Source: a virus (taxonomy: Duplodnaviria; Heunggongvirae; Uroviricota; Caudoviricetes). From it: DNA of 10,992 nt. The stretch is from IMG/VR virus record IMGVR_UViG_2600255112_000003; one strand, given 5' to 3'. Positions within the stretch are counted from its first letter, which is position 1, and each line of letters opens with the position of its first letter. This document shows, piece by piece, positions 1-9,940 of this stretch. The translations under genes and the position numbers were made by a program. Below the pieces are notes generated by a model. It saw only the letters and a list, made by a program, of their open reading frames with translations. It was not told where the DNA came from and ran no database searches.

Positions 1-55
1 ATGGCCGTTTCCGGCCTGCATGGCATGATTTGCGCTTTTGGACGGGAGATTCAGC

Positions 56-643
56 GTGCTGATTGGCTATGTAAGGGTATCAACAAATGACCAGAATACA
101 GACCTGCAACGAAACGCTCTTGTTTGTGCAGGATGTGAACAAATATTTGAAGATAAATTAAGCGGGACAAAGACAGACCGACCGGGATTAAAACGCGCTT
201 TAAAGCGCCTTCAAAAAGGTGACACGCTGGTTGTCTGGAAACTGGATCGCCTCGGGCGAAGCATGAAACATCTGATTTCTCTCGTCGGGGAACTACGGGA
301 GCGAGGAATTAATTTTCGCAGTCTGACCGACAGCATAGATACATCTTCTCCAATGGGGCGTTTTTTCTTCCACGTGATGGGTGCCCTGGCTGAAATGGAA
401 CGTGAATTAATTGTTGAACGTACACTGGCCGGACTGGCGGCAGCGCGCGCAAGGGGGCGCACAGGCGGACGTCGACCGAAGCTGACAAAAGAACAGCATG
501 AGCAAATAGCAAGGCTGATCAAAAACGGGCACGACAGAAAACAACTGGCAATAATTTACGGCATTGGCATATCGACGATTTATCGTTACCACCCCGCAGG
601 AGAATCGAGCGGAACAATTGAGAAGAGTCAGGAAACAAAATAA
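56..643 (+). CDS. Serine recombinase, DNA invertase of the Gin/Pin/Hin/Cin family
   Basis: Translation reads VLIGYVRVSTNDQNTDLQRNAL...DTLVVWKLDRLGRSMKHL..., matching the resolvase/invertase catalytic domain with the active-site serine in the YVRVST motif and a C-terminal helix-turn-helix. The track ORF begins at TTG 38, but GTG 56 sits 7 nt after a GGGAG Shine-Dalgarno (44-48) and gives the family-typical N-terminus (M)LIGY, so I place the start at 56. Confidence 0.9.
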   Translation: MLIGYVRVSTNDQNTDLQRNALVCAGCEQIFEDKLSGTKTDRPGLKRALKRLQKGDTLVVWKLDRLGRSMKHLISLVGELRERGINFRSLTDSIDTSSPMGRFFFHVMGALAEMERELIVERTLAGLAAARARGRTGGRRPKLTKEQHEQIARLIKNGHDRKQLAIIYGIGISTIYRYHPAGESSGTIEKSQETK

Positions 644-670
644 CCGCTAATCTGACCATTAGCGGTTTTT
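642..670. terminator. Putative bidirectional intrinsic terminator between the convergent invertase and gpU genes
   Basis: Perfect 10-bp inverted repeat aaccgctaat / attagcggtt (642-651 and 658-667) around a 6-nt loop, followed by ttt on the + strand and an A/T-rich stretch on the other side. It lies in the 35-bp gap between the two convergent stop codons. Confidence 0.6.
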
Positions 671-678
671 GTGTTAAA

Positions 679-1173
679 TCAGAACAGCCCTTTAACTGAA
701 CTGGCCGCGCTGTTAAGAGATGATGTCACCTTATCTTTGAAGCCGGACAGCATATCACTGAACGATGAGGATTGCAGGCGCTCCCGCAAATCCTCATCAC
801 AGCGTTCAAGGGTCAGTGAAAATTCTATCTTTTTCGCCTTACCGTAGCGATCAAACTCGGAACGGGTCGTATTCGTTTCAGTCAGGACATACATGCCGTA
901 AATCTGCCCGACGCCATCAATCAAAGGCCAGGGTCGTCCTGTATACGCCTGCGTGGTCAGCAGCGACAGCGACACTTCGCCACCTGTAATTTCAGGATAA
1001 AGCACACCAGAAAGAACGATGCGATCATCACCTGCACCGATATACTGCCAGCTTGCTGAACGGTTAACGCGTTCATTTTTCACATGCCGCCAGCTTTTGT
1101 TTTGCTGTAACTGCTGATGCGGCAGCGTGCGCAGCTCAAAAACAAACATGCCGTAGATCATCATCATGGCCAT
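679..1173 (-). CDS. U: P2-like tail protein gpU
   Basis: 164-aa ORF starting MAMMMIYGMFVFELRT, an N-terminus resembling my recollection of P2 gpU. It lies directly downstream of the tape measure gene (T stop TGA 1180-1182, GGAG, then ATG at 1173), as in P2. Confidence 0.85.
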   Translation of the reverse strand: MAMMMIYGMFVFELRTLPHQQLQQNKSWRHVKNERVNRSASWQYIGAGDDRIVLSGVLYPEITGGEVSLSLLTTQAYTGRPWPLIDGVGQIYGMYVLTETNTTRSEFDRYGKAKKIEFSLTLERCDEDLRERLQSSSFSDMLSGFKDKVTSSLNSAASSVKGLF

Positions 1174-1179
1174 GACTCC

Positions 1180-4023
1180 TCAATCTTTATCGTAAAAACT
1201 GCCACGCCCGGCACGGGCGCGCCGTTCCATTTCTGCCCTGACCATTTCACCGACCAGTTTCGCCAGTTCGCGGGGATTCTGCGTAACAACGTTATGCAGA
1301 TGAACATGAATTTCACCACCAAATCCGGAGGCAACAGGCTCCCGGTTACGGGAAGTTACAGGAACTGATGCCACTGGAGATCGTATAGCCTCCGCCACCG
1401 GGCGGGAGCTGGCCGCAACAACAGGGACCAGCGCCGGAGGCAGCGGAGCCGGGACCACGGGTGTGATATTAATTGCGGGGGCAGGCTTACTGACCTGCGC
1501 AATCTTCCGCTCCTGCCACTCCCCACGAACAGCAAGTGCTCGGGGCAGGTTTTTAAAGACAATATCGCCGGGGCCAATGCGTTTTTTCGTCTCCTCAACC
1601 AGCTTACCTGTGTTATCAGCAATTTTGCTGAGTCTGCGCAGCGTACCGGTATTGCTGTCTGTGAGCGGTTTATTGTCTTTGGGGTTATCACCTCCGGTGC
1701 CATTGCCATTTTCCACAGGCTTCGGCGGATTGATTTTCGCCAGGTCCCCCTGAAGCAAGGCAACCTTGTCCTGAAGAATGGCCGCACGCTGTGCGTCTTC
1801 GATTTTCTTGCGCGCCCTTTCCGCTTCATCCGGAAGCACACCAAGCTTTTCAAGTATCCACGCCAGCGTATCCAGCAACATTTTTGCAGGTGTCAGAACA
1901 AGTTGTAACGCACCGCCAAGAACGTTACCGAATATCTCGCCAGCACTGGTACATTTATCCAGCGTTTCCTTGCTGGACTCCATCGGTGACAGCAGCGATT
2001 TAAACCAGTTAAACACCTGGCTGATCCCACTCCCGATTGCGTCAAAAACAGGACCAAACCGTTCAAAGGTTTCGCGCAACGGGGTCAGCCTTTCCATAAT
2101 CCCGCTGAACACCCCGGCAAAAAATGCCCTGATGGGATCCCAGTATTTCCAGATAAGAACGGCAGCTCCGGCAAGCGCAGCCACGATAAGACCAACCGGA
2201 CTGAACAACGCCCCGATAGCGCCTCCCAGTAAAGAAACGGAACCCGTCACCATTCCCCATAGTGCTGGCAGAACCCTGACAGCATTCATTGATCCGGTCA
2301 GGAGGGAAAAACCAAGACGCAGTTTTGCCAGCGGGCCAGCAAGCACACCAATAGCCAGCGACAACGAGCCAACCGTTGCAGTCATTGCCAGCAGTGCACC
2401 GCCTGCAATCAGTAGCTGGCGCGTCAGTGCGGGATGGGCCTGCGCCAGCGCCGTCACCTTTGATACCACACGCGTGAGCCACTGCGTGACAGAACGCAGC
2501 GGACCGTCAATCAGATCTGCAATGCGGATGCGCAACCCTTCCCATGCACTGCTGAGTGATTTCAGATCGCCGTCAAGGTTGTTGGCCATAACCTTTGCCG
2601 TGCGTTCAGCCTCACCGCGCGCGCCTTCAAGTTCTTTTCTCAGTTTGGGTAAGGAGCCGTCACCTGCCGCATCAACGAGGGCCATAAATGATGTGAAAGC
2701 CTCTTCTCCGGCAATGTCCTTAAAGAACGATACCCGGTCAACTTCCCCGTATTTGCGGGTAGCTTTATAAAGGTCAGCCAGCACATCCTCCATCGGGCGC
2801 ATTTTGCCCCCGGCATCCGAGACAGACACGCCAAGCTCTTTCAGCGCCTCTGCTGCCGCCTTTGGCGGTGATGCCAGACGAGCCAGGCTGGCACGCATTG
2901 CCGTACCAGCATCACTCCCCCTGATACCCATATTCGCCAGCACGCCCGCCATCGCTGCGGCCTGCTCCAGCGATATTCCCAGCTTACCCGCCACCGGACC
3001 TGCATATTTCATGGTTTCACCCAGTGCGCGAAGGTCAGTGTTGGTACGGGTAAACGCTGCGGTGAGTGTGTCGCCGACCCGGCCCATCTGGTCAGCAGAA
3101 AGACCGAACTGCGTCAGAATATTTGAGCCAATATCCGCCGTCTCACCGAGGTCCATACCGCCAGCCGTTGCCATGCTCAGTACGCCAGGGAGCGCAGCCT
3201 GAATGGCCTGTGGTGTAAAGCCAGCCATTGCAAGAAATGCCTGTCCACTGGCGGCATCGCCTGCGGTGAACTGCGTTTCAGAGCCAAGTTTTAACGCCTG
3301 CTCACGCAGCGCCTTAAACTGCGGGCTGTTCTGGTCGATTCGCGTCAGTGCCTGAACGCGGGACATCTCTTTGCCGAACCCGATCGCAGGCTGCAAAAAA
3401 CGCCCGGCAGCATAGCCGCCCGCCGCTGCCGCACCAATTGCCAGCGCACCACCTGTTTTCAGTTTTCCCGCTGTTTCCTGCGCGCGCGAATACCGCTCAC
3501 GCGCCCGTGTTACACGCGCAAGCACCTGCCGTTCGCGTTCAAGCTGGTTGTTGTACTGTTCGGTGCGTCTGATGGCCTGCTGGATGGTGTTATCGCTGCC
3601 TGTCAGGGAAATGCCGTGGCGTTTCAGCTCTCCGCCAAGCTCCCGCATTTTCTGAATTTCCCGTGTGCGCGATTCATTCAGGCGTTCAAGCCGGGTGCTT
3701 AACTGCTGCATCAGCTTTTGTTGTTTTTCGCTGAGCACTGTACCCGTGCGTTGTAACTGATTAAGGGCGTTAAGCTGGCGTCGTGCTTTCACGATGCCCG
3801 CATCCGCTTTACTGACAGCGTCACGGGCGCGCTCAAATGATCGCGCCTGACGCTCGAGATTTTTGATCGCCCCCTGCGTTCGCTGGATGGAGTCACCAAA
3901 CTGCCCCATCAGGCGGCGGGCGTTTTCGGCAGGCCGGGTCAGCCTGTCAACGGCGCTGAAAGCGACCCGGATATCAAGAGTCTTCATTGTCTGCATTCCC
4001 GCTACGAAGTGCCGCCCGCTCAC
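1180..4023 (-). CDS. T: Tail tape measure protein (gpT-like)
   Basis: 947-aa ORF, Ala/Gly/Leu-rich, with a charged helical N-terminal third and central hydrophobic segments, positioned between E/E' and U as expected for a tape measure. The track start is GTG 4023; in-frame ATGs at 3996 and 3987 are alternative starts, and the start overlaps the end of the E' frame. Confidence 0.85.
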   Translation of the reverse strand: MSGRHFVAGMQTMKTLDIRVAFSAVDRLTRPAENARRLMGQFGDSIQRTQGAIKNLERQARSFERARDAVSKADAGIVKARRQLNALNQLQRTGTVLSEKQQKLMQQLSTRLERLNESRTREIQKMRELGGELKRHGISLTGSDNTIQQAIRRTEQYNNQLERERQVLARVTRARERYSRAQETAGKLKTGGALAIGAAAAGGYAAGRFLQPAIGFGKEMSRVQALTRIDQNSPQFKALREQALKLGSETQFTAGDAASGQAFLAMAGFTPQAIQAALPGVLSMATAGGMDLGETADIGSNILTQFGLSADQMGRVGDTLTAAFTRTNTDLRALGETMKYAGPVAGKLGISLEQAAAMAGVLANMGIRGSDAGTAMRASLARLASPPKAAAEALKELGVSVSDAGGKMRPMEDVLADLYKATRKYGEVDRVSFFKDIAGEEAFTSFMALVDAAGDGSLPKLRKELEGARGEAERTAKVMANNLDGDLKSLSSAWEGLRIRIADLIDGPLRSVTQWLTRVVSKVTALAQAHPALTRQLLIAGGALLAMTATVGSLSLAIGVLAGPLAKLRLGFSLLTGSMNAVRVLPALWGMVTGSVSLLGGAIGALFSPVGLIVAALAGAAVLIWKYWDPIRAFFAGVFSGIMERLTPLRETFERFGPVFDAIGSGISQVFNWFKSLLSPMESSKETLDKCTSAGEIFGNVLGGALQLVLTPAKMLLDTLAWILEKLGVLPDEAERARKKIEDAQRAAILQDKVALLQGDLAKINPPKPVENGNGTGGDNPKDNKPLTDSNTGTLRRLSKIADNTGKLVEETKKRIGPGDIVFKNLPRALAVRGEWQERKIAQVSKPAPAINITPVVPAPLPPALVPVVAASSRPVAEAIRSPVASVPVTSRNREPVASGFGGEIHVHLHNVVTQNPRELAKLVGEMVRAEMERRARAGRGSFYDKD

Positions 4024-4243
4024 GCCAGCTAACCACTTCGCCGGGCGTCATCATGAAGATTTCGGCGGGCGACCAGTTAAAAATGGCGGCAATATCCGCC
4101 ACCAGATCTTCGATGTGCTCAAAGCACACCAGGGTGATTACGCTGCCGTCTCCTGCACGCTCTTCGCGCCAGAGTCTGGCTCGCTCATAAAATTTACAGC
4201 CACAGCGCACAACTGAATAAAATCGCGTGACGACATTTTTTTA
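3974..4243 (-). CDS. E' extension of the tail assembly chaperone, expressed only as an E+E' fusion by -1 frameshift
   Basis: The -1 frame relative to E opens immediately after a TAA at 4243-4241 and stays open to a stop at 3976-3974, overlapping the T start. An A7 run on the coding strand (T7 at 4236-4242 on +) sits exactly at the opening of this frame. This matches the conserved chaperone frameshift arrangement of long-tailed phages (P2 E/E', lambda G/GT). Confidence 0.45.
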
Positions 4244-4512
4244 ATCATCACTTCATCCAGTCGTGGCGAGGTCACGCGAGGCAACAGCGTGAACATGGTA
4301 TCCGCTTTCAGATTCAGCACATCAGACAGCGACAGACCACGCAGGGATCCAGCCTGCTCAATAGCCCCGGTGATCTCCACATACGTGATTTTTTCGCCAC
4401 CACGCTCAATTGGTCGGGTCAGTTTTACGCCACGTTCGACAGCCATATCCTCAACTGCCGTCACATTATCCGCCACGGTGTTATTCCGGGTTTCAGTATC
4501 GATGTCTTTCAT
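4138..4512 (-). CDS. E: Tail assembly chaperone gpE
   Basis: 124-aa ORF with an ATG at 4512-4510 preceded by AAGGAG at 8-nt spacing. It contains LTRPIERGGEKITYVEI...LRGLSLSDVLNL...LLPRVTSP, resembling the P2 gpE family, and lies between FII and T. Confidence 0.8.
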   Translation of the reverse strand: MKDIDTETRNNTVADNVTAVEDMAVERGVKLTRPIERGGEKITYVEITGAIEQAGSLRGLSLSDVLNLKADTMFTLLPRVTSPRLDEVMIKKMSSRDFIQLCAVAVNFMSEPDSGAKSVQETAA

Positions 4513-4567
4513 CTGTTGTCTCCTTTTCAGTCAGAGGCGACGCACTGCGCCGCCGGCATATTACTTA

Positions 4568-5080
4568 TCAGCCAAGCCCAAGCGCGGAACGGATGCGATC
4601 GGGCACAATGTCCTTGCCGTCCTTCCGGTAAATGAAGTTCAGCAGGTCAATCTCCCACAACGGGCGATCGTTAACACTCAGCTTGTAGTAGGTGTTTTTA
4701 ATGGCGTAAGTGTGTGATGTGGCTTCGCCCTGTTTGGCTTCCCCCATATCAATTTCCGTCACACGTCCGCGCATTTCGACTTCATACAGGTCGCTTTCTG
4801 CATCGGTGTAGTATTCACCCGCAAAACGCAGCAGCGTGCCGTCAATCGTGCCGCCATACTTAAGGAACAGCTCACGAACTGCGCCCCCCATGACAAAGCT
4901 CGCATCAAGCGCGGAGTCGTCCAGACCGAGATCAATACTTACCGCACCCATCATGCCACCACCCCGGTAGCTGTCGGTTTTGCGCGTCAGCTTAGGCAGA
5001 GTGACGGACGTCACCTTACCCACTTCGTTTTCACCATCCACAAACAGCGTAAAAAAGCGAAGATGTTTTGGCACAGCCAT
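4568..5080 (-). CDS. FII: Tail tube protein FII
   Basis: 170-aa ORF, close to my recollection of P2 FII size, immediately downstream of the sheath gene. Its ATG shares one nucleotide with the FI stop (TGATG), indicating translational coupling. Confidence 0.9.
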   Translation of the reverse strand: MAVPKHLRFFTLFVDGENEVGKVTSVTLPKLTRKTDSYRGGGMMGAVSIDLGLDDSALDASFVMGGAVRELFLKYGGTIDGTLLRFAGEYYTDAESDLYEVEMRGRVTEIDMGEAKQGEATSHTYAIKNTYYKLSVNDRPLWEIDLLNFIYRKDGKDIVPDRIRSALGLG

Positions 5081-6264
5081 CAGGCACCTCCCAGCACCGC
5101 AAATGCGGGTTCAAAGTATTCATCAGTAAACGTCTGGTAAAGCTCCATGTCTTCCAGTGGCGGAACGGGCGTATATTTGTAGCGAATACGCACACGTCCC
5201 TGACGTAAATCCGTGGTGCTGTTATCCACCACGTCATACCAGCACTCCGCGCCAATCAGTTTCCCGGCAGTCACCAGTGAATCCAGTTTTGCCCTGATGG
5301 CACTGATAACATCCTTCACATTCGCAGGCGTCAGTGGACTGTCGATGGTTTCAAACTGCGCTTCCGCAATTGAATCAGCCAGCACCTGTGCGGTTCGGGT
5401 ATACACCTCAAAGATGTAGGCGTTCGTTTCCGGTGTGCGGTTACCCCAGAAGCGGAACCCGTTACGACGAATAATGGTCGTGATTTCTTTGTTGTTGAGG
5501 CTGTTGGCATCGCTGTCTTCGGCCTGCAACGACCAGAACACATGCCTCGACATCCCCAGCACATTTTTAACCGGAACGTTGGACAGTGATTTGTGCCATC
5601 CCTGTTCATGGTCAATGTACGCACGAAGGCCGCACGCATAGGCAGGCGCGGGGAACGTTTCGTTTTTGCCACTTTTCGGGTTGTAGGCGATGAAGTCCGG
5701 CCATAAGAGCATCACCTCACGTTCGTTGAATTTCTGGCGGTAGGTAATCGCCTCAGCCATCGTGTTACAGCCGTGACATGAGGCATACACAAACGCGCGC
5801 AGTTTACCTGCAATCACGCACAGGGATTTCGTTACCGCCTCCGTGTCCAGCTCCGGCGCGGCCAGAATACGCGGACGGTATCCGATGCTTTCATCCTGCT
5901 CTGCAACAAGCAGCGCATACATCCCCGTATAGCTGCCGTCATCCTCAGAACCACCGATAACCAGTTGATCCTGCGTCTTTCCGTCTTCTTCTTTGTGTTC
6001 AGCCACGCGAACGACGATCACCTTTGTGCTCACCTGGTCTGCGATGGCCTTAAGCGCACGATAAAGCGTCCCCGTTGTTCCGCATTTTCCCAGCACGTCA
6101 TTGACGCGGGTCAGCAGTGTGGGCTTGTTCAGCGGGAACAGCTTCGCGTCCGCATCATCCGCCGTTGCCACGATACCGATAACGCTGGAATCAACATCGT
6201 TAATCGCTGTTACCAGGTCGGTATTTTCCGTAACACGGGCACCATGAAAACGAGTTTCACTCAT
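5080..6264 (-). CDS. FI: Contractile tail sheath protein FI
   Basis: 394-aa ORF starting MSETRFHGARVTE, with size and position (first gene of the sheath-tube-chaperone-tape measure operon) as in P2 FI. ATG at 6264-6262. Confidence 0.9.
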   Translation of the reverse strand: MSETRFHGARVTENTDLVTAINDVDSSVIGIVATADDADAKLFPLNKPTLLTRVNDVLGKCGTTGTLYRALKAIADQVSTKVIVVRVAEHKEEDGKTQDQLVIGGSEDDGSYTGMYALLVAEQDESIGYRPRILAAPELDTEAVTKSLCVIAGKLRAFVYASCHGCNTMAEAITYRQKFNEREVMLLWPDFIAYNPKSGKNETFPAPAYACGLRAYIDHEQGWHKSLSNVPVKNVLGMSRHVFWSLQAEDSDANSLNNKEITTIIRRNGFRFWGNRTPETNAYIFEVYTRTAQVLADSIAEAQFETIDSPLTPANVKDVISAIRAKLDSLVTAGKLIGAECWYDVVDNSTTDLRQGRVRIRYKYTPVPPLEDMELYQTFTDEYFEPAFAVLGGA

Positions 6265-6421
6265 AGCTTCAGCCCCTTGTATCCGTTAAATGATTCGGCA
6301 ACAATCATCACCCACCACGCGCGTAATCTCACCCCTGCGCCGTTCTCCCGATTCGGCGACAACAAAAAGCAGTAACCCCTTCCGCACGCACATGCGACCA
6401 TGCCGCACAGGGAGGGAACAG

Positions 6422-7531
6422 ATGACCGATACCACCATGCAATTGCTCAGTCAGGGCACGGCCCCCGTGAAAATGCCGGATTTGGATATTTTCGCGGAGG
6501 GTAAAACGCTGTCAGGCGTGGCAGAGCGCCTGATGAACCTGTCACTGACCGACAACCGGGGATTTGAAGCGGACCAGCTCACCATCACGCTGGATGATGC
6601 GGATGGTCAGTTGCAGCTACCGCCACGGGGCGCGCGCCTGACGGTTCTCATTGGCTGGAAAGGAGAGCCGCTGACAGAAAAAGGCACTTACATTGTTGAT
6701 GAAATCGCTCACGAAGGACCGCCGGACAGGCTGACTGTTTCAGCCAGAAGCGCAGATTTTCGGGATGAATTTAACGTTAAACGTGAGGTGTCCTGGCATG
6801 ATGTGACCGTTGAGCGTGTGGTATCCGCCATCGCTCATCGGTATGGTCTGAAACCGCAAATCAGCGAAATGCTGATGGATATCGAAATCGACCACGCCGA
6901 CCAGACCGAAGAAAGCGACATGTCCTTCCTTACGCGCATGGCGGAAATGCTGGGCGCAATCACCACGGTAAAAAGCGGCAATCTGTTATTCATCATGCCA
7001 GGTGGTGGCGTGAACGCACAGGGCCAGCCGTTGCCCTCGTTCGCCATTACACGCAGCAGCGGCGATCGCCATCAGTTCCGCATTGCTGACCGCGAGGCGT
7101 ATACGGGGGTACGTGCCTACTGGCTTGATCTTAATTACGGGAAAAAGAAAAAAGTCAGCGTGAAACGCCGTAAACCGCCAAAACCCAAAAAGGAGAAAAG
7201 CAGCAGCCGTGAAGGTGATTATATGGAGGGCGCGGAAGGCAATGTGTTTGTGTTACGCAAGACTTATCAGAACGAGCAGGCAGCAAGACGCGCAGCGGCG
7301 GCAAAGTGGCAGCAGCTACAACGCGGAGCCGCATCATTCTCCATCACGCTGGCGCGTGGACGCGCAGAACTCTATCCCGAAATGCATGGCACGGTAACAG
7401 GATTTAAAAGCGAGATTGATAATCAGGACTGGATTATTGCAAAAGCCGAGCACACCATTGATAACAGCGGCTTTACCACGCAGCTTGAGCTTGAGGCAAA
7501 AATCCCGGAATGGATAGCGGAAACAGAGTGA
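6422..7531 (+). CDS. D: P2-like tail protein gpD (late control gene D family)
   Basis: Long ORF immediately upstream of ogr, with a basic KKKKVSVKRRKPPKPKKEK linker. The track ORF begins at 6290, but ATG 6422 is preceded by GGAGGG (6411-6416) and gives about 369 aa, close to my recollection of P2 gpD size. Confidence 0.85.
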   Translation: MTDTTMQLLSQGTAPVKMPDLDIFAEGKTLSGVAERLMNLSLTDNRGFEADQLTITLDDADGQLQLPPRGARLTVLIGWKGEPLTEKGTYIVDEIAHEGPPDRLTVSARSADFRDEFNVKREVSWHDVTVERVVSAIAHRYGLKPQISEMLMDIEIDHADQTEESDMSFLTRMAEMLGAITTVKSGNLLFIMPGGGVNAQGQPLPSFAITRSSGDRHQFRIADREAYTGVRAYWLDLNYGKKKKVSVKRRKPPKPKKEKSSSREGDYMEGAEGNVFVLRKTYQNEQAARRAAAAKWQQLQRGAASFSITLARGRAELYPEMHGTVTGFKSEIDNQDWIIAKAEHTIDNSGFTTQLELEAKIPEWIAETE

Positions 7532-7573
7532 AGAACTTAGAATAGCGGCAGCACCACGTTAAGGGAGGTCGCT

Positions 7574-7834
7574 ATGTTCCGTTGTCCGCTTTGTGGCGCA
7601 TCTGCCCGTATCCGCACCAGTCGCCCGGAAAATGATTCAAACACCGTGCGGCAAAAGTATTACCAGTGTAACAACCTGGAATGCGGCGTATGCTTCTCAA
7701 CACTGGAAGCCTTCCATAAATTCACATCGAAACACGCCTCCGGCGTTCACTCATCAGAAGGCATCCCGTGGCATGAGCTGCCAGCTTCACACAGGGGAAA
7801 CAATCAGATGAGTTTGCCTTTACCTCAGAATTAA
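7574..7834 (+). CDS. ogr: Ogr/Delta-family zinc-finger late transcription activator
   Basis: 86-aa protein MFRCPLCGASARIRTSR...YYQCNNLECGVCF carrying the Cys-x2-Cys...Cys-x4-Cys zinc-binding arrangement of P2 Ogr. AGGGAGG Shine-Dalgarno lies upstream, and the gene follows D as in P2. Confidence 0.85.
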   Translation: MFRCPLCGASARIRTSRPENDSNTVRQKYYQCNNLECGVCFSTLEAFHKFTSKHASGVHSSEGIPWHELPASHRGNNQMSLPLPQN

Positions 7835-7843
7835 CAGGCAGAA

Positions 7844-7872
7844 TTGCCGGAGTAACAAAAAAGCGATAGATT
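7844..7872 (+). promoter_or_regulatory. Candidate sigma70 promoter for the mok/hok transcript
   Basis: TTGCCG (7844-7849), 17-bp spacer, TAGATT (7867-7872). Both hexamers are imperfect and this is an eye call only. Confidence 0.2.
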
Positions 7873-7894
7873 ACGTGCGGGTGCCTTTCGGCTG

Positions 7895-8107
7895 ATGGTC
7901 GGAGGGAATACCCGAAGGCCGGATGTGGAAAGGCCCCGGAAAACATATCTGTTTAACCGAGGCCCTAACCGCATTACCTTGACAAGTGAAAGGTTAGCGC
8001 CTCTCCGGAAAAGGAGCAAGTGCTATGTCGCAAAAATCGCTTACGGCCATCACGTTCTGCGTGACGGCAATCCTCATCATCTGGATGCTGCACGGTTCGC
8101 TGTGTGA
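7895..8107 (+). CDS. mok-like overlapping reading frame upstream of and overlapping hok
   Basis: 70-codon ORF in a different frame that starts upstream of hok and ends inside it, the geometry of mok in hok/sok loci. I see no clear Shine-Dalgarno and cannot confirm by similarity. Confidence 0.3.
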   Translation: MVGGNTRRPDVERPRKTYLFNRGPNRITLTSERLAPLRKRSKCYVAKIAYGHHVLRDGNPHHLDAARFAV

Positions 8108-8165
8108 AATACGGATGAGTTTCTGGGGAGCGGAGTTTGCGGCGTTCTTACAGTGTAAGCAGTAA
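8025..8165 (+). CDS. hok: Hok/Gef-family type I toxin (small membrane peptide)
   Basis: Not in the ORF track (46 aa). ATG 8025 is preceded by AAGGAG (8011-8016). Translation MSQKSLTAITFCVTAILIIWMLHGSLCEIRMSFWGAEFAAFLQCKQ has an N-terminal transmembrane helix followed by the SLCE(I/L)R ... E-x-AAFL-x-CK signature, closest to my recollection of HokA. Confidence 0.75.
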   Translation: MSQKSLTAITFCVTAILIIWMLHGSLCEIRMSFWGAEFAAFLQCKQ

Positions 8166-8174
8166 GGAAACCGC

Positions 8175-8196
8175 GACGGGGGAGCAATCCCCCGTC
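8175..8196 (+). other. Stable stem-loop just 3' of hok, possibly part of the hok mRNA 3' structure
   Basis: Perfect 9-bp stem gacggggga / tcccccgtc with a gcaa loop, 10 nt after the hok stop. There is no U-tract, so it is not a classical intrinsic terminator. Confidence 0.4.
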
Positions 8197-8226
8197 AATC
8201 GGTTGCCAGGGTAAGGTCGATAAGGC

Positions 8227-8321
8227 ACCCTATCTCACCAATGCCGTTCAGTTAGTTAAGGAATTGAGGTTCGAGCTATCGAACCTCAATTCCTTAACTG
8301 AACTACATTACCCTATCTCAC
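8227..8321. mobile_element. 71-bp palindromic miniature element with IS4-like termini, flanked by a 12-bp target-site duplication
   Basis: Exact 12-bp direct repeats ACCCTATCTCAC at 8227-8238 and 8310-8321 flank 8239-8309. The enclosed segment is almost entirely an inverted repeat: a 16-bp perfect stem, a gcta centre, and 9 more pairs after a 4-nt gtta bulge. Both tips begin AATG, and AATGCCGTTCAGTTA..AGGA resembles my recollection of the IS4 terminal repeat. A 12-bp duplication fits the 11-13 bp made by IS4-family transposases. Confidence 0.55.
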
Positions 8322-8445
8322 AGCTCTAAATGCAAAAATCCCATGAAACTGTGGGTATTTCATCACACACTGACACTGCTCTACCTTTCTATATGTATCA
8401 CTCTAAACCAGTTAATCAATTGGCACTTATCAACAACAAAAAATC

Positions 8446-8454
8446 TGATAAAAT
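8446..8454 (+). promoter_or_regulatory. Candidate extended -10 promoter for the AT-rich two-gene cassette
   Basis: TGaTAAAAT about 55 nt upstream of ATG 8509 in an AT-rich leader, with no good -35 at proper spacing. Confidence 0.3.
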
Positions 8455-8508
8455 CAAAATGTTTTGTAACAAATTTCAGCTTGTAGTGTTCCAAAGGAGA
8501 CGAATTAC

Positions 8509-8841
8509 ATGACATTAATCAAATGTCCTGAATGCCAGAAAGAGGTAAGCGATTCAGCATTATGTTGCCCTGCTTGTGGTAAACAACTGAAAAAACTTAA
8601 GCGTTCATTTTTTGGAAAACTCATTAAATGGACTTTTATATTTTTTAATATTTTTATGATCTATACACTTTTAGTTGGACTAGGAGGCGCTGATGAAATA
8701 ATAAACAATACCACATCCGATGCCGAAAAAGCTGGGGCAGTTATTGGTACGGGCTTAGGTTTAATTGTCATTGGAGGCTTATGGGTTATTGGCGATATCA
8801 TTATCGGAATTTTAGTATTTCTTACTAAACCAAAGGGATAA
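8509..8841 (+). CDS. Small membrane protein with N-terminal zinc ribbon and two predicted transmembrane helices
   Basis: AAGGAG Shine-Dalgarno 9 nt upstream. CPECQ-x12-CCPACG forms a four-cysteine zinc ribbon, followed by hydrophobic segments WTFIFFNIFMIYTLLVGLGG and AVIGTGLGLIVIGGLWVIGDIIIGILVFL. The coding sequence is visibly AT-rich. Confidence 0.7.
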   Translation: MTLIKCPECQKEVSDSALCCPACGKQLKKLKRSFFGKLIKWTFIFFNIFMIYTLLVGLGGADEIINNTTSDAEKAGAVIGTGLGLIVIGGLWVIGDIIIGILVFLTKPKG

Positions 8842-8845
8842 TAAA

Positions 8846-9739
8846 ATGAAAAATATGATTTTTTCTATAGGTGCATTATTTATATCAATTAGTGTACTGC
8901 CTGTTCATGCAGCAACTGAACATAAGAATTTCAATGCAGTGCTCCAGTGCCGAGCGATAGAAAACAATAAAGACAGACTTTCTTGTTACGATAAGTCAAT
9001 ACAACCGACTCGAACGAAAGTTGCTGAAAAATTTGAAAGCAGGGATCAATGCCCTGATGAGAAAGATGATGACAAACGTTTATCTTGTTATGATCGTTTT
9101 TTTTCTCCAACATTTACTCCATCTGTAAACTCAAAATCTAAAACGGAAAAGCTAGTAACAACAAAGGCTCAGCAACCAAATCTTTCTGAAATATCTAAAT
9201 GCCGAGCAGAAAATGATAAAGAAGCCAGACTAAACTGCTACGATAAACTATTCCCACAGGATGAAGCTGTTCAATCTGAATCACAATTAGAGAAAGCCAC
9301 AGATGCAGGAAAATGGCACACGTCCATTACTACATCGCCAATTGATGATTCGAAAAATATAATTTTATCGTTAGAAAGTGATGATTATATCAGAACTCCA
9401 TTTGGAGAAGCTGTTACTCCCACTCTGTTTATAGCTTGCCGAGAAAAGAAAACCGAAGTATTTCTTAGTTGGGATGTATATTTAGGCCTTGAACAAACCA
9501 GCATGCTGTATCGTCTTGATAAACAGAAAGCAGTTGAAAGAAACTGGCTAATATCTACAGATACAAAGGCTGTTTTTTATAAAGGTAATGATATTGATTT
9601 CATAAGAAAACTTGCCAACTCACATAAAATGTACACAAAAATAACCCCTTATAATGAAAGCCCTGTAAGTGCAACTTTCAATTTAAGCGGCCTGTCAAAT
9701 GCACTAAAACCGCTTCAAGATGCTTGTAACTGGAAATAG
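8846..9739 (+). CDS. Secreted (Sec signal peptide) cysteine-repeat protein of unknown function
   Basis: Starts 4 nt after the upstream stop with an AGGG ribosome-binding site, so it is likely co-transcribed. N-terminus MKNMIFSIGALFISISVLPVHA/AT is a typical signal peptide with an AxA cleavage site. Three repeats of C-x11-C-Y-D-[KR] are followed by a C-terminal domain of about 150 aa with two more cysteines. Confidence 0.75.
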   Translation: MKNMIFSIGALFISISVLPVHAATEHKNFNAVLQCRAIENNKDRLSCYDKSIQPTRTKVAEKFESRDQCPDEKDDDKRLSCYDRFFSPTFTPSVNSKSKTEKLVTTKAQQPNLSEISKCRAENDKEARLNCYDKLFPQDEAVQSESQLEKATDAGKWHTSITTSPIDDSKNIILSLESDDYIRTPFGEAVTPTLFIACREKKTEVFLSWDVYLGLEQTSMLYRLDKQKAVERNWLISTDTKAVFYKGNDIDFIRKLANSHKMYTKITPYNESPVSATFNLSGLSNALKPLQDACNWK

Positions 9740-9757
9740 TATATACCTCCCCAATAT

Positions 9758-9799
9758 CAGATGACAAAACGCCCGTGAAAACGGGCGTTTTGTCATCTG
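9758..9799. terminator. Strong bidirectional intrinsic terminator
   Basis: Perfect 18-bp inverted repeat cagatgacaaaacgcccg / cgggcgttttgtcatctg with a 6-nt loop. The GC core is flanked by A/T runs on both strands, 19 nt after the cassette stop. Confidence 0.8.
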
Positions 9800-9940
9800 T
9801 AACTCGAAAATGTGGTCATTGCGTGGACATACGATGATATAAATCCTTTTATATCAAAAGATTAAACCACTATTATTTTCCTCAACAAGGATTTTCACGT
9901 TTGTGTTACCTGTATGAGACGAGAGTTAACCAGACAAGTG

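What the first reader, a model, noticed from the sequence alone, without database searches (positions are those of the whole stretch)
38..7834. Tail block FI-FII-E-T-U is inverted relative to D-ogr, with a DNA invertase at one junction
In P2 the genes FI, FII, E/E', T, U, D and ogr are colinear on one strand. Here FI through U are on the minus strand (6264 down to 679), while D and ogr are on the plus strand (6422-7834), divergent from FI, and the invertase occupies the position after U where D is expected. A single inversion with breakpoints in 644-678 and 6265-6421 would restore the canonical order invertase, FI, FII, E, T, U, D, ogr. One breakpoint coincides with a 10-bp perfect palindrome and lies next to the invertase gene. 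This would uncouple D from the F operon, so D needs its own promoter. It could be a fixed rearrangement, a programmed invertible segment much larger than the usual tail-fibre switch, or an assembly artefact.
Basis: partly seen in the sequence, partly recalled or inferred. Interest (0 to 1): 0.6.

Follow-up and report, generated by a model that had tools for sequence, protein, structure and literature searches.

The report
Fixed tail-gene inversion in P88-like prophage
The reversed block of tail genes is real, but it is the normal, fixed gene order of a large branch of P2-like phages (including the known coliphage P88), not a flipping DNA switch or an assembly error, so the finding is ordinary.

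Summary
The window holds a Gin-like invertase (38-643, +), then U, T, E, FII and FI on the minus strand (679-6264), then D and ogr on the plus strand (6422-7834).

The interpretation as something unusual is not supported. The window is the right end of a Xuanwuvirus (P88-like, Peduoviridae) prophage beside the E. coli gene flk. Plaque-forming phage P88 has the identical order.

- The native FI/D junction is intact in 1357 of 1373 E. coli genomes that carry it. Neither junction expected from a flip occurs in any of 5426 complete genomes.
- The same order occurs in Senquatrovirus, Reginaelenavirus and Reipivirus phages that have no invertase.
- In a survey of one genome per species, all 61 loci with D at least 61% identical are divergent. 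The 17 with D at most 55% identical whose order could be read are all colinear, like P2.

The 10-bp palindrome is a bidirectional terminator hairpin. No gix site or shared inverted repeat flanks the block. The invertase serves the tail-fibre segment just upstream of the window.

D is probably transcribed from a bidirectional late promoter. One conserved T(G/C)T-N12-ACA Ogr-type site has -10 hexamers 48.5 bp away on both sides, like P2 pP/pO. This part is inferred, not shown.

The parts
38..643 (+). Gin/Hin-type serine DNA invertase. It serves the tail-fibre invertible segment that lies just upstream of the window.
   Evidence: Pfam Resolvase 1.5e-50 plus HTH_7; PHROG 125 DNA invertase 8.7e-97. 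Bases 1-411 are 93-97% identical to gin of Mu and D108. In P88 a 65-nt inverted repeat (23822-23886 / 26862-26926) flanks the alternative tail-fibre and assembly genes immediately upstream of the invertase.
642..667 (.). Bidirectional intrinsic-terminator-like hairpin between the convergent invertase and U genes. This is the '10-bp palindrome'.
   Evidence: 10-bp perfect stem, 6-nt loop, T-runs on both strands. Folding energy -15.7 kcal/mol (+ strand) and -16.1 kcal/mol (- strand), z about -4.1 and -4.2. No partner copy at the FI/D junction.
679..1173 (-). Tail protein U
   Evidence: Pfam Phage_P2_GpU 5.5e-39; 46% identical to P2 U.
1180..4023 (-). Tape measure protein T
   Evidence: Pfam PhageMin_Tail 3.9e-58; PHROG 28.
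3974..4210 (-). Probable E' frame (frameshift extension of E). Not examined in detail.
   Evidence: ORF. P88 annotates a small 'tail protein' gp46 at the equivalent place. The slippery site was not checked.
4138..4512 (-). Tail assembly chaperone E
   Evidence: PHROG 103, 7.9e-37; weak Pfam Phage_TAC_7 hit.
4568..5080 (-). Tail tube protein FII
   Evidence: Pfam Phage_tube 7.5e-47.
5080..6264 (-). Tail sheath protein FI
   Evidence: Pfam Phage_sheath_1, Gp18_domIII_N and sheath_1C; PHROG 23, 1.2e-127.
6304..6309 (-). Predicted -10 hexamer (GATGAT) of the leftward FI promoter (pF). Predicted start about 6297.
   Evidence: A .A...T hexamer lies 48.5 bp from the dyad centre in 61 of 63 non-redundant relatives. 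Columns 6304, 6305 and 6308 are invariant. The same geometry is seen in 11 of 11 colinear relatives.
6344..6361 (.). Ogr-type activator site T(G/C)T-N12-ACA (here TCT-N12-ACA), shared by the two divergent promoters.
   Evidence: Present once, at the aligned position, in 59 of 63 non-redundant FI-D intergenic regions. T6344 61/63, T6346 63/63, A6359 63/63, C6360 61/63, A6361 63/63. The same motif marks the P/O region in P88 and the P/O and V regions in SEN5. The TGT-N12-ACA consensus for P2 late promoters is quoted in PMC3931495.
6396..6401 (+). Predicted -10 hexamer (GACCAT) of the rightward D promoter. Predicted start about 6408.
   Evidence: A .A...T hexamer lies 48.5 bp from the dyad centre in 58 of 63 relatives with the divergent order, against 1 of 11 at the mirror position in colinear relatives.
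6422..7531 (+). Baseplate hub / late control protein D, with its own Shine-Dalgarno sequence (GGGAGGG, 6410-6416).
   Evidence: Pfam Phage_GPD 4.3e-17; PHROG 52, 1.2e-165, starting at residue 43 of the longer ORF. Sequence read.
7574..7834 (+). Ogr/Delta-family zinc-finger late activator
   Evidence: Pfam Ogr_Delta 5.1e-14. C4-X2-C7...C32-X4-C37 motif in the translation.

Best explanation
The window is the right arm of a P88-like (Xuanwuvirus, Peduoviridae) prophage integrated next to flk in E. coli. The reversed FI-FII-E-T-U block is an ancient inversion that is fixed in one deep branch of the P2-like phages; it happened once, before Xuanwuvirus, Senquatrovirus, Reginaelenavirus and Reipivirus diverged. 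It is not catalysed by the neighbouring invertase and does not switch.

The invertase is an ordinary Gin-type enzyme for the tail-fibre segment immediately upstream of the window. The palindrome after it is a two-way transcription terminator that ends both the invertase transcript and the F-operon transcript.

The inversion carried the late promoter pF, with its palindromic Ogr-binding site, next to D. In this branch that single site, centred at 6352.5, appears to drive two divergent late promoters. pF reads leftwards into FI-FII-E-T-U (predicted start about 6297). A new promoter reads rightwards into D and probably ogr (predicted start about 6408). The two predicted starts are 111 bp apart, the same geometry as the P2 pP/pO pair.

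Shown: gene content and order, fixation of the order, its phylogenetic distribution, the absence of crossover sites, and the conservation and symmetry of the promoter-like elements. Inferred: transcription starts, dependence on Ogr, and terminator function.
For: Identity of the element:
- 96.7-98% nucleotide identity and the same order in phage P88 and Xuanwuvirus P884B11.
- P88 is an induced, plaque-forming phage (PMC5285337).

Fixation of the order:
- The native FI/D junction is intact in 1357 of 1373 E. coli genomes that match it.
- The hypothetical flipped U-D junction is covered at 80% or more in 0 of 1413 genomes, and the flipped invertase-FI junction in 0 of 1637.
- All 80 IMG/VR loci have FI divergent from D.

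Clade-wide distribution and independence from the invertase:
- SEN5, Kp4860-2 and Kp4848-1 have U-T-E-FII-FI on one strand and D-ogr on the other, with no invertase.
- In the survey of one genome per species, all 61 loci with D at least 61% identical are divergent, across more than 25 genera of Enterobacterales.
- Of the 19 loci with D at most 55% identical, the 17 that retain a detectable FI-U gene are all colinear; the other two could not be read or showed only ogr.
- An invertase sits beside U in 8 of the 61 divergent loci.
- One bipartition of a neighbour-joining tree of D separates 64 divergent from 20 colinear loci.

No switch machinery around the block:
- No gix match with up to 3 mismatches.
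- No shared inverted repeat at the two junctions.
- The invertase's own 65-nt inverted repeats flank the tail-fibre segment in P88.

Terminator.

Promoter:
- An invariant dyad, with .A...T hexamers exactly 48.5 bp to each side in 61 of 63 (FI side) and 58 of 63 (D side) sequences.
- The same motif lies at other late-operon heads in P88 and SEN5.
- Colinear relatives have the dyad and the FI-side hexamer in 11 of 11 cases, but the mirror hexamer in only 1 of 11.
- P2 annotation: one activator site at 3057-3087 between starts at 3016 and 3127.
Against: - No transcript data were available, so the promoter and terminator assignments rest on sequence conservation and analogy.
- In this window the left half-site is TCT rather than the canonical TGT. 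That variant is shared by 27 of the 63 relatives and by the P88 P/O site.
- The simple sigma-70 scan found no consensus promoter in 6265-6421. This is expected for activator-dependent promoters with poor -35 regions, but it is not positive evidence.
- Assemblies record only the majority orientation, so a very rare flip in a population cannot be excluded by genome surveys alone.
Confidence: 0.88

Rival explanations
1. This is a programmed invertible segment. The adjacent Gin-like invertase would flip the 5.6-kb FI-U block between two orientations, a much larger switch than the usual tail-fibre segment.
For: A serine invertase gene abuts one end of the block. A palindrome lies at that junction.
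Against: - No gix-like site anywhere in the window.
- No inverted repeat shared by the two junctions, in the window or in P88.
- Both flipped junctions are absent from 5426 complete E. coli genomes, while the native junction is intact in 1357.
- The same order is fixed in three genera and 53 of 61 species-level loci that lack the invertase.
- The invertase has its own canonical substrate upstream.
- Flipping would separate FI-U from a promoter architecture that is conserved only in the present orientation.
Confidence: 0.02
2. This is an assembly artefact: the contig was mis-joined at 644-678 or 6265-6421.
For: None, beyond the departure from P2 gene order.
Against: Identical junctions occur in independently sequenced phage genomes (P88, P884B11, 500465-2, phiSM, PhiR44_2, Chuche). 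They also occur in more than 1300 complete E. coli chromosomes, in 80 of 80 IMG/VR contigs, and in 61 other species.
Confidence: 0.01
3. The inversion is fixed, as in the main explanation, but D is not driven by a shared Ogr site. D (with ogr) would instead be transcribed from a constitutive or early promoter, or by read-through, and the conserved elements on the D side would have another role.
For: P2 ogr has its own non-late promoter. The D-side hexamers are weaker and more variable than the FI-side ones. A GC-rich conserved block (6383-6391) of unknown role lies between the dyad and the hexamer.
Against: The D-side .A...T hexamer sits at exactly the mirror distance (48.5 bp) in 58 of 63 divergent loci, against 1 of 11 colinear controls. 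D is a structural tail gene that is needed late, at the same time as FI-U. The geometry equals that of P2 pP/pO.
Confidence: 0.09

Closest known systems
Escherichia phage P88 and other Xuanwuvirus (Peduoviridae)
   Same: 96.7-98% nucleotide identity over the phage part of the window. Identical gene order and strands: invertase +, U-T-E-FII-FI -, D-ogr +.
   Different: The window carries a different cargo region after ogr (8237-9895, low G+C, zinc-ribbon plus VasI/TagO-like genes). P884B11 and phiSM share this cargo; P88 does not. The tape measure gene is 36 nt longer than in P88.
Phage P2 and Fels-2 (colinear F operon FI-FII-E-T-U-D, then ogr)
   Same: The same seven genes, 33-49% identical in protein to P2. 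Fels-2 also has a Gin/Cin-like invertase between the tail-fibre segment and the F operon.
   Different: In P2 and Fels-2 all seven genes are on one strand, and U and D overlap. Here FI-U is inverted in place, D has its own Shine-Dalgarno sequence, and the promoter region is shared with FI.
P2 pP/pO divergent late promoters with one activator-binding site
   Same: A single dyad site lies midway between two divergent late promoters. The annotated P2 starts are 111 bp apart (3016 and 3127) around a site at 3057-3087. Here the predicted starts are about 6297 and about 6408, around 6344-6361.
   Different: In P2 this architecture serves the head genes and was mapped experimentally. Here it serves tail genes and is predicted only. 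The left half-site is TCT in this window.
Mu G segment / Gin, P1 C segment / Cin, Salmonella Hin invertible switches
   Same: The invertase is 93-97% identical at nucleotide level to gin of Mu and D108 over bases 1-411. It sits beside an inverted-repeat-flanked tail-fibre segment in P88.
   Different: That switch lies upstream of the window. The FI-U block has no crossover sites and no second orientation.

Membership tests
Xuanwuvirus (P88-like) prophage, Peduoviridae | High nucleotide identity to genus members over the shared genome | tested here: met
   98.0% over 90% of the window with P884B11; 96.7% over 75% with P88. Only the 11-kb window could be compared, not the whole genome.
Xuanwuvirus (P88-like) prophage, Peduoviridae | Same gene order and orientation in the tail / late-control region | tested here: met
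   P88 annotation and local tblastn give invertase +, U-T-E-FII-FI -, D + and ogr +.
Gin/Hin/Cin/Pin-type programmed invertible segment (applied to the FI-U block) | Serine invertase encoded next to the segment | tested here: met
   Resolvase plus HTH_7 domains at 38-643.
Gin/Hin/Cin/Pin-type programmed invertible segment (applied to the FI-U block) | Inverted crossover sites (about 26-bp gix/hix type) at both ends of the segment | tested here: not met
   No gix match with up to 3 mismatches. No inverted repeat pairing 644-678 with 6265-6421, in the window or in P88.
Gin/Hin/Cin/Pin-type programmed invertible segment (applied to the FI-U block) | Both orientations observed among genomes or within populations | tested here: not met
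   Flipped junctions found in 0 of 1413 and 0 of 1637 genomes; native junction intact in 1357 of 1373. Within-culture heterogeneity could not be tested without reads.
Gin/Hin/Cin/Pin-type programmed invertible segment (applied to the FI-U block) | Co-occurrence of the arrangement with the invertase across relatives | tested here: not met
   An invertase is next to U in 8 of 61 divergent species-level loci. It is absent in SEN5, Kp4860-2 and Kp4848-1.
P2-type Ogr/Delta/B-dependent late promoter (FI-D intergenic region) | Upstream dyad TGT-N12-ACA centred near -55 | tested here: met
   T(G/C)T-N12-ACA in 59 of 63 relatives, with invariant columns. The window has TCT-N12-ACA at 6344-6361. Its centre is 55.5 bp from both predicted starts. 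Consensus quoted from PMC3931495.
P2-type Ogr/Delta/B-dependent late promoter (FI-D intergenic region) | An Ogr-family zinc-finger activator encoded by the phage | tested here: met
   Ogr_Delta domain 5.1e-14 and a four-cysteine motif.
P2-type Ogr/Delta/B-dependent late promoter (FI-D intergenic region) | Mapped transcription starts and dependence on the activator | not testable with these tools
   This needs 5'-end mapping and reporter assays.
Bidirectional rho-independent terminator (642-667) | Stable hairpin followed by a U-run on both transcribed strands | tested here: met
   10-bp stem, T-runs on both sides. -15.7 and -16.1 kcal/mol, z about -4. Termination itself was not tested.

The most novel reading that the evidence does not exclude
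The inversion converted the one-way late promoter pF into a two-way promoter. The Ogr site is a palindrome that acts from about -55, so moving it next to D allowed a new -10 element to evolve at the mirror position. A single activator site would then co-regulate FI-U and D (and perhaps feed back on ogr) in this whole branch of P2-like phages. I found no description of this in the papers I could search.
Probability: 0.6. Interest if true: 0.3.

Novelty: already known. Interest (0 to 1): 0.12.

Why it matters
It matters little for discovery. The arrangement is already present in deposited, annotated and ICTV-classified phage genomes (P88, P884B11, SEN4/5 and others) and in over a thousand E. coli chromosomes.

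- **Annotation use.** The FI/D orientation is a clean synteny marker. It separates one deep branch of Peduoviridae (D at least 61% identical to this one) from P2, 186, Fels-2 and PSP3-type phages. A Gin-like invertase next to a reversed block should not be read as evidence of a giant switch.
- **The modest new point.** The conserved, symmetric promoter-like architecture between FI and D suggests how an essential gene survived being cut out of its operon. That model is cheap to test.

Tried and rejected
- **Gin/Hin crossover site.** I searched the Mu gix sequence with up to 3 mismatches and found no match.
- **Inverted repeats pairing the two junctions.** None in the window or in P88. The longest pairs are 70-85% chance-level matches inside coding sequence.
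- **Direct repeat GATTCGGC(A/G)ACAA at about 6293 and about 6350.** I considered it as a possible regulator site and rejected it. The right copy is not conserved even in P88 (CGCCACGGCGACAA), and the left copy falls outside the conserved columns.
- **Consensus sigma-70 scan of the FI-D spacer.** No hit. This is uninformative for activator-dependent promoters.
- **The search for related loci with the single D protein in IMG/VR.** It returned only 98-99% identical copies. This was useful for fixation but not for breadth, so I used an alignment against one genome per species instead.
- **Literature.** Papers on P88, phiSM, SEN4/5 and a Serratia relative do not mention the inversion. A search for P2-like tail-operon inversion found nothing relevant.
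- **PADLOC scan of the cargo genes after ogr.** No hits.


Full report
**1. What is in the window**

- Plus strand: a resolvase-family DNA invertase (38-643).
- Minus strand: U (679-1173), tape measure T (1180-4023), chaperone E (4138-4512), tube FII (4568-5080) and sheath FI (5080-6264).
- Plus strand: D (6422-7531) and an Ogr/Delta zinc-finger protein (7574-7834).

The long ORF from 6290 has no homology before residue 43, so D starts at 6422, behind a GGGAGGG ribosome-binding site. P2 has FI-FII-E-T-U-D-ogr on one strand. Fels-2 has invertase-FI-FII-E-T-U-D-ogr on one strand. The window therefore differs from the canonical order by one in-place inversion of about 661-6290, as described.

**2. 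Where the window comes from**

Megablast against phage records gives 98.0% identity over 90% of the window with Xuanwuvirus P884B11. It gives 96.7% over 75% with Escherichia phage P88 and similar values for four or five other phages. Against complete E. coli genomes the whole window, including the host gene flk at its right end, is found at 96-98.5% in 264 genomes.

The P88 record (Peduoviridae, Xuanwuvirus) has exactly this order. Its late genes O through G are on the plus strand. Next come an invertible tail-fibre region and the invertase (+), then U-T-E'-E-FII-FI (-), then D (+). P88 was induced from E. coli K88 and forms plaques (PMC5285337). The relative phiSM of Citrobacter rodentium is also a live phage (PMC6456863). 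The order is therefore compatible with a functional virus.

**3. Is it a switch or an artefact?**

I built the two junctions that a flip of 661-6290 would create and searched all 5426 complete E. coli genomes.
- U-to-D junction: each half matches, but no genome covers 80% or more of the query (0 of 1413).
- Invertase-to-FI junction: the same result (0 of 1637).
- Native FI/D junction: intact in 1357 of the 1373 genomes that match it.
- IMG/VR: all 80 contigs retrieved with the D protein have FI divergent from D.

The window contains no match to the Mu gix sequence with up to three mismatches. No inverted repeat pairs the two junctions, in the window or in P88.

The invertase has its ordinary substrate. 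In P88 a 65-nt inverted repeat (23822-23886 and 26862-26926) flanks the alternative tail-fibre and assembly genes directly upstream of the invertase. The window begins at the very end of that right repeat.

The '10-bp palindrome' (642-651 / 658-667) is a hairpin with a 6-nt loop and T-runs on both strands. It folds at -15.7 and -16.1 kcal/mol, with z near -4. It sits between two convergent genes, so it looks like a two-way intrinsic terminator rather than a crossover site.

**4. How widely the order is shared**

The nearest phages outside Xuanwuvirus, ranked by D protein, are:
- Klebsiella phage Kp4860-2 (Reginaelenavirus, 70% identical)
- Klebsiella phage Kp4848-1 (Reipivirus, 72%)
- Salmonella phage SEN5 (Senquatrovirus, 63%)

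All three have U-T-E-FII-FI on one strand and D-ogr on the other, and none has an invertase.

A profile of D proteins was then scanned against one genome per bacterial species and returned 80 loci.
- **D at least 61% identical:** all 61 loci have the divergent order. They come from Salmonella, Edwardsiella, Serratia, Erwinia, Pantoea, Pectobacterium, Brenneria, Klebsiella, Kosakonia, Xenorhabdus, Photorhabdus, Providencia, Morganella, Hafnia, Yersinia and others.
- **D at most 55% identical:** 17 of these 19 loci retain at least one FI-U gene, and all 17 are colinear. The other two could not be read or showed only ogr.
- **Invertase:** it lies next to U in only 8 of the 61 divergent loci.
- **Tree of D proteins:** a neighbour-joining tree has one internal branch that separates all 64 divergent loci from all 20 colinear ones.

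The simplest reading is one old inversion, inherited by a whole branch of Peduoviridae.

**5. How D is probably expressed**

The inversion cuts D away from U; in P2 and Fels-2 the two genes overlap. I aligned the FI-D spacer from 63 non-redundant divergent loci. Most of it is poorly conserved, but three elements stand out.
- **A dyad, T(G/C)T-N12-ACA.** It occurs once per spacer at the aligned position in 59 of 63 sequences, with nearly invariant columns. In the window it is 6344-6361. Chance expectation is about 0.1 per spacer by my own estimate.
- **An FI-side hexamer, .A...T.** It is on the minus strand, ends 48.5 bp from the dyad centre, and is present in 61 of 63. In the window it is GATGAT, 6309-6304.
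- **A D-side hexamer, .A...T.** It is on the plus strand, also ends 48.5 bp from the centre, and is present in 58 of 63. In the window it is GACCAT, 6396-6401.

TGT-N12-ACA is the published consensus of the Ogr-dependent P2 late promoters (PMC3931495, quoting Christie and Calendar 1985 and Julien and Calendar 1995). With a start about 7 nt beyond each hexamer, the predicted starts are about 6297 (-) and about 6408 (+). Each is 55.5 bp from the dyad centre, and they are 111 bp apart. P2 annotates the same layout for its divergent head promoters pP and pO: starts at 3016 and 3127 around one activator site at 3057-3087.

The motif-plus-hexamer rule picks out few sites in whole genomes.
- In P88 it finds only the P/O spacer and the FI/D spacer.
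- In SEN5 the sites at late-operon heads are the P/O spacer, the region upstream of V and the FI/D spacer. Only P/O and FI/D have hexamers on both sides. A few one-sided matches fall elsewhere.

As a control, I looked at colinear relatives. The dyad lies 76.5-81.5 bp upstream of the FI start codon in 10 of the 11 that carry it (141.5 bp in the eleventh). That matches the 74.5-88.5 bp seen in the divergent branch. The FI-side hexamer is present in 11 of 11, but the mirror position fits .A...T in only 1 of 11.

So the rightward -10 element is specific to the branch with the inversion. My inference is that the palindromic activator site came along with pF and was co-opted to drive D. This is a prediction from conservation; no transcript data were available.

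**6. Verdict**

The arrangement, however, is the standard, fixed order of a recognised group of P2-like phages and is already present in annotated public genomes. The invertase and the palindrome are unrelated to it. The papers I could read on P88, phiSM, SEN4/5 and a Serratia relative do not comment on the inversion. The only modestly new element is the proposed shared-site, two-way late promoter. Interest is low.

Noticed in passing
window 7858-8230: The stretch after ogr is 82% identical to a region of many Stx-converting phages that is annotated Hok/Gef or MokW-like host-killing protein. P88 annotates the same feature. It is probably a hok/sok-type toxin-antitoxin module at the prophage end.
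   Followed up: no
window 8254-8299: A perfect 21-nt inverted repeat with a 4-nt spacer (AGTTAAGGAATTGAGGTTCGA / TCGAACCTCAATTCCTTAACT). It lies exactly where homology to P88 ends (about 8236) and the low-G+C cargo begins. Its role is unknown.
   Followed up: no
window 8300-9900: A low-G+C (34-37%) cargo block inside the prophage, shared with P884B11, phiSM and PhiR44_2 but not with P88. It encodes a zinc-ribbon protein (8509-8841) and a VasI/TagO-like protein (8846-9739), which RefSeq annotates as 'type VI secretion system-associated protein TagO'. Neither gives a PADLOC hit. Many E. coli genomes carry an extra roughly 1.4-kb insertion here, with a RES-family NAD+ phosphorylase gene annotated under the match.
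   Followed up: partly
L071 (IMGVR_UViG_2654587728_000014), locus coordinates 430-7612: One related contig has the tape measure gene split at residue 455. The C-terminal half plus U lie in the opposite orientation, with two invertase copies between the halves. It looks like a rearrangement between two related prophages or a mis-assembly. It is not a flip of the FI-U block.
   Followed up: partly
L088 (NZ_JBQPOM010000071.1, 'Vagococcus sp. WN89Y'): A genome labelled as a Gram-positive Vagococcus carries this enterobacterial prophage region, with D 97% identical and the same gene order, on a 226-kb contig. It is most likely a contaminated or mislabelled assembly.
   Followed up: no
Citrobacter phage phiSM (OR565851.1), matches window 1-9892: The phiSM paper describes virions with a long non-contractile, siphovirus-type tail (PMC6456863). 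Yet its genome is 96% identical to this window and encodes a sheath, tube and P2-type baseplate hub. Morphology and genome appear inconsistent.
   Followed up: no
window 6383-6391: A conserved GC-rich block (consensus CGCGCGCGC, most columns 51-61 of 63) lies between the Ogr-type dyad and the predicted D-side -10 hexamer. The simple promoter model does not explain it.
   Followed up: no
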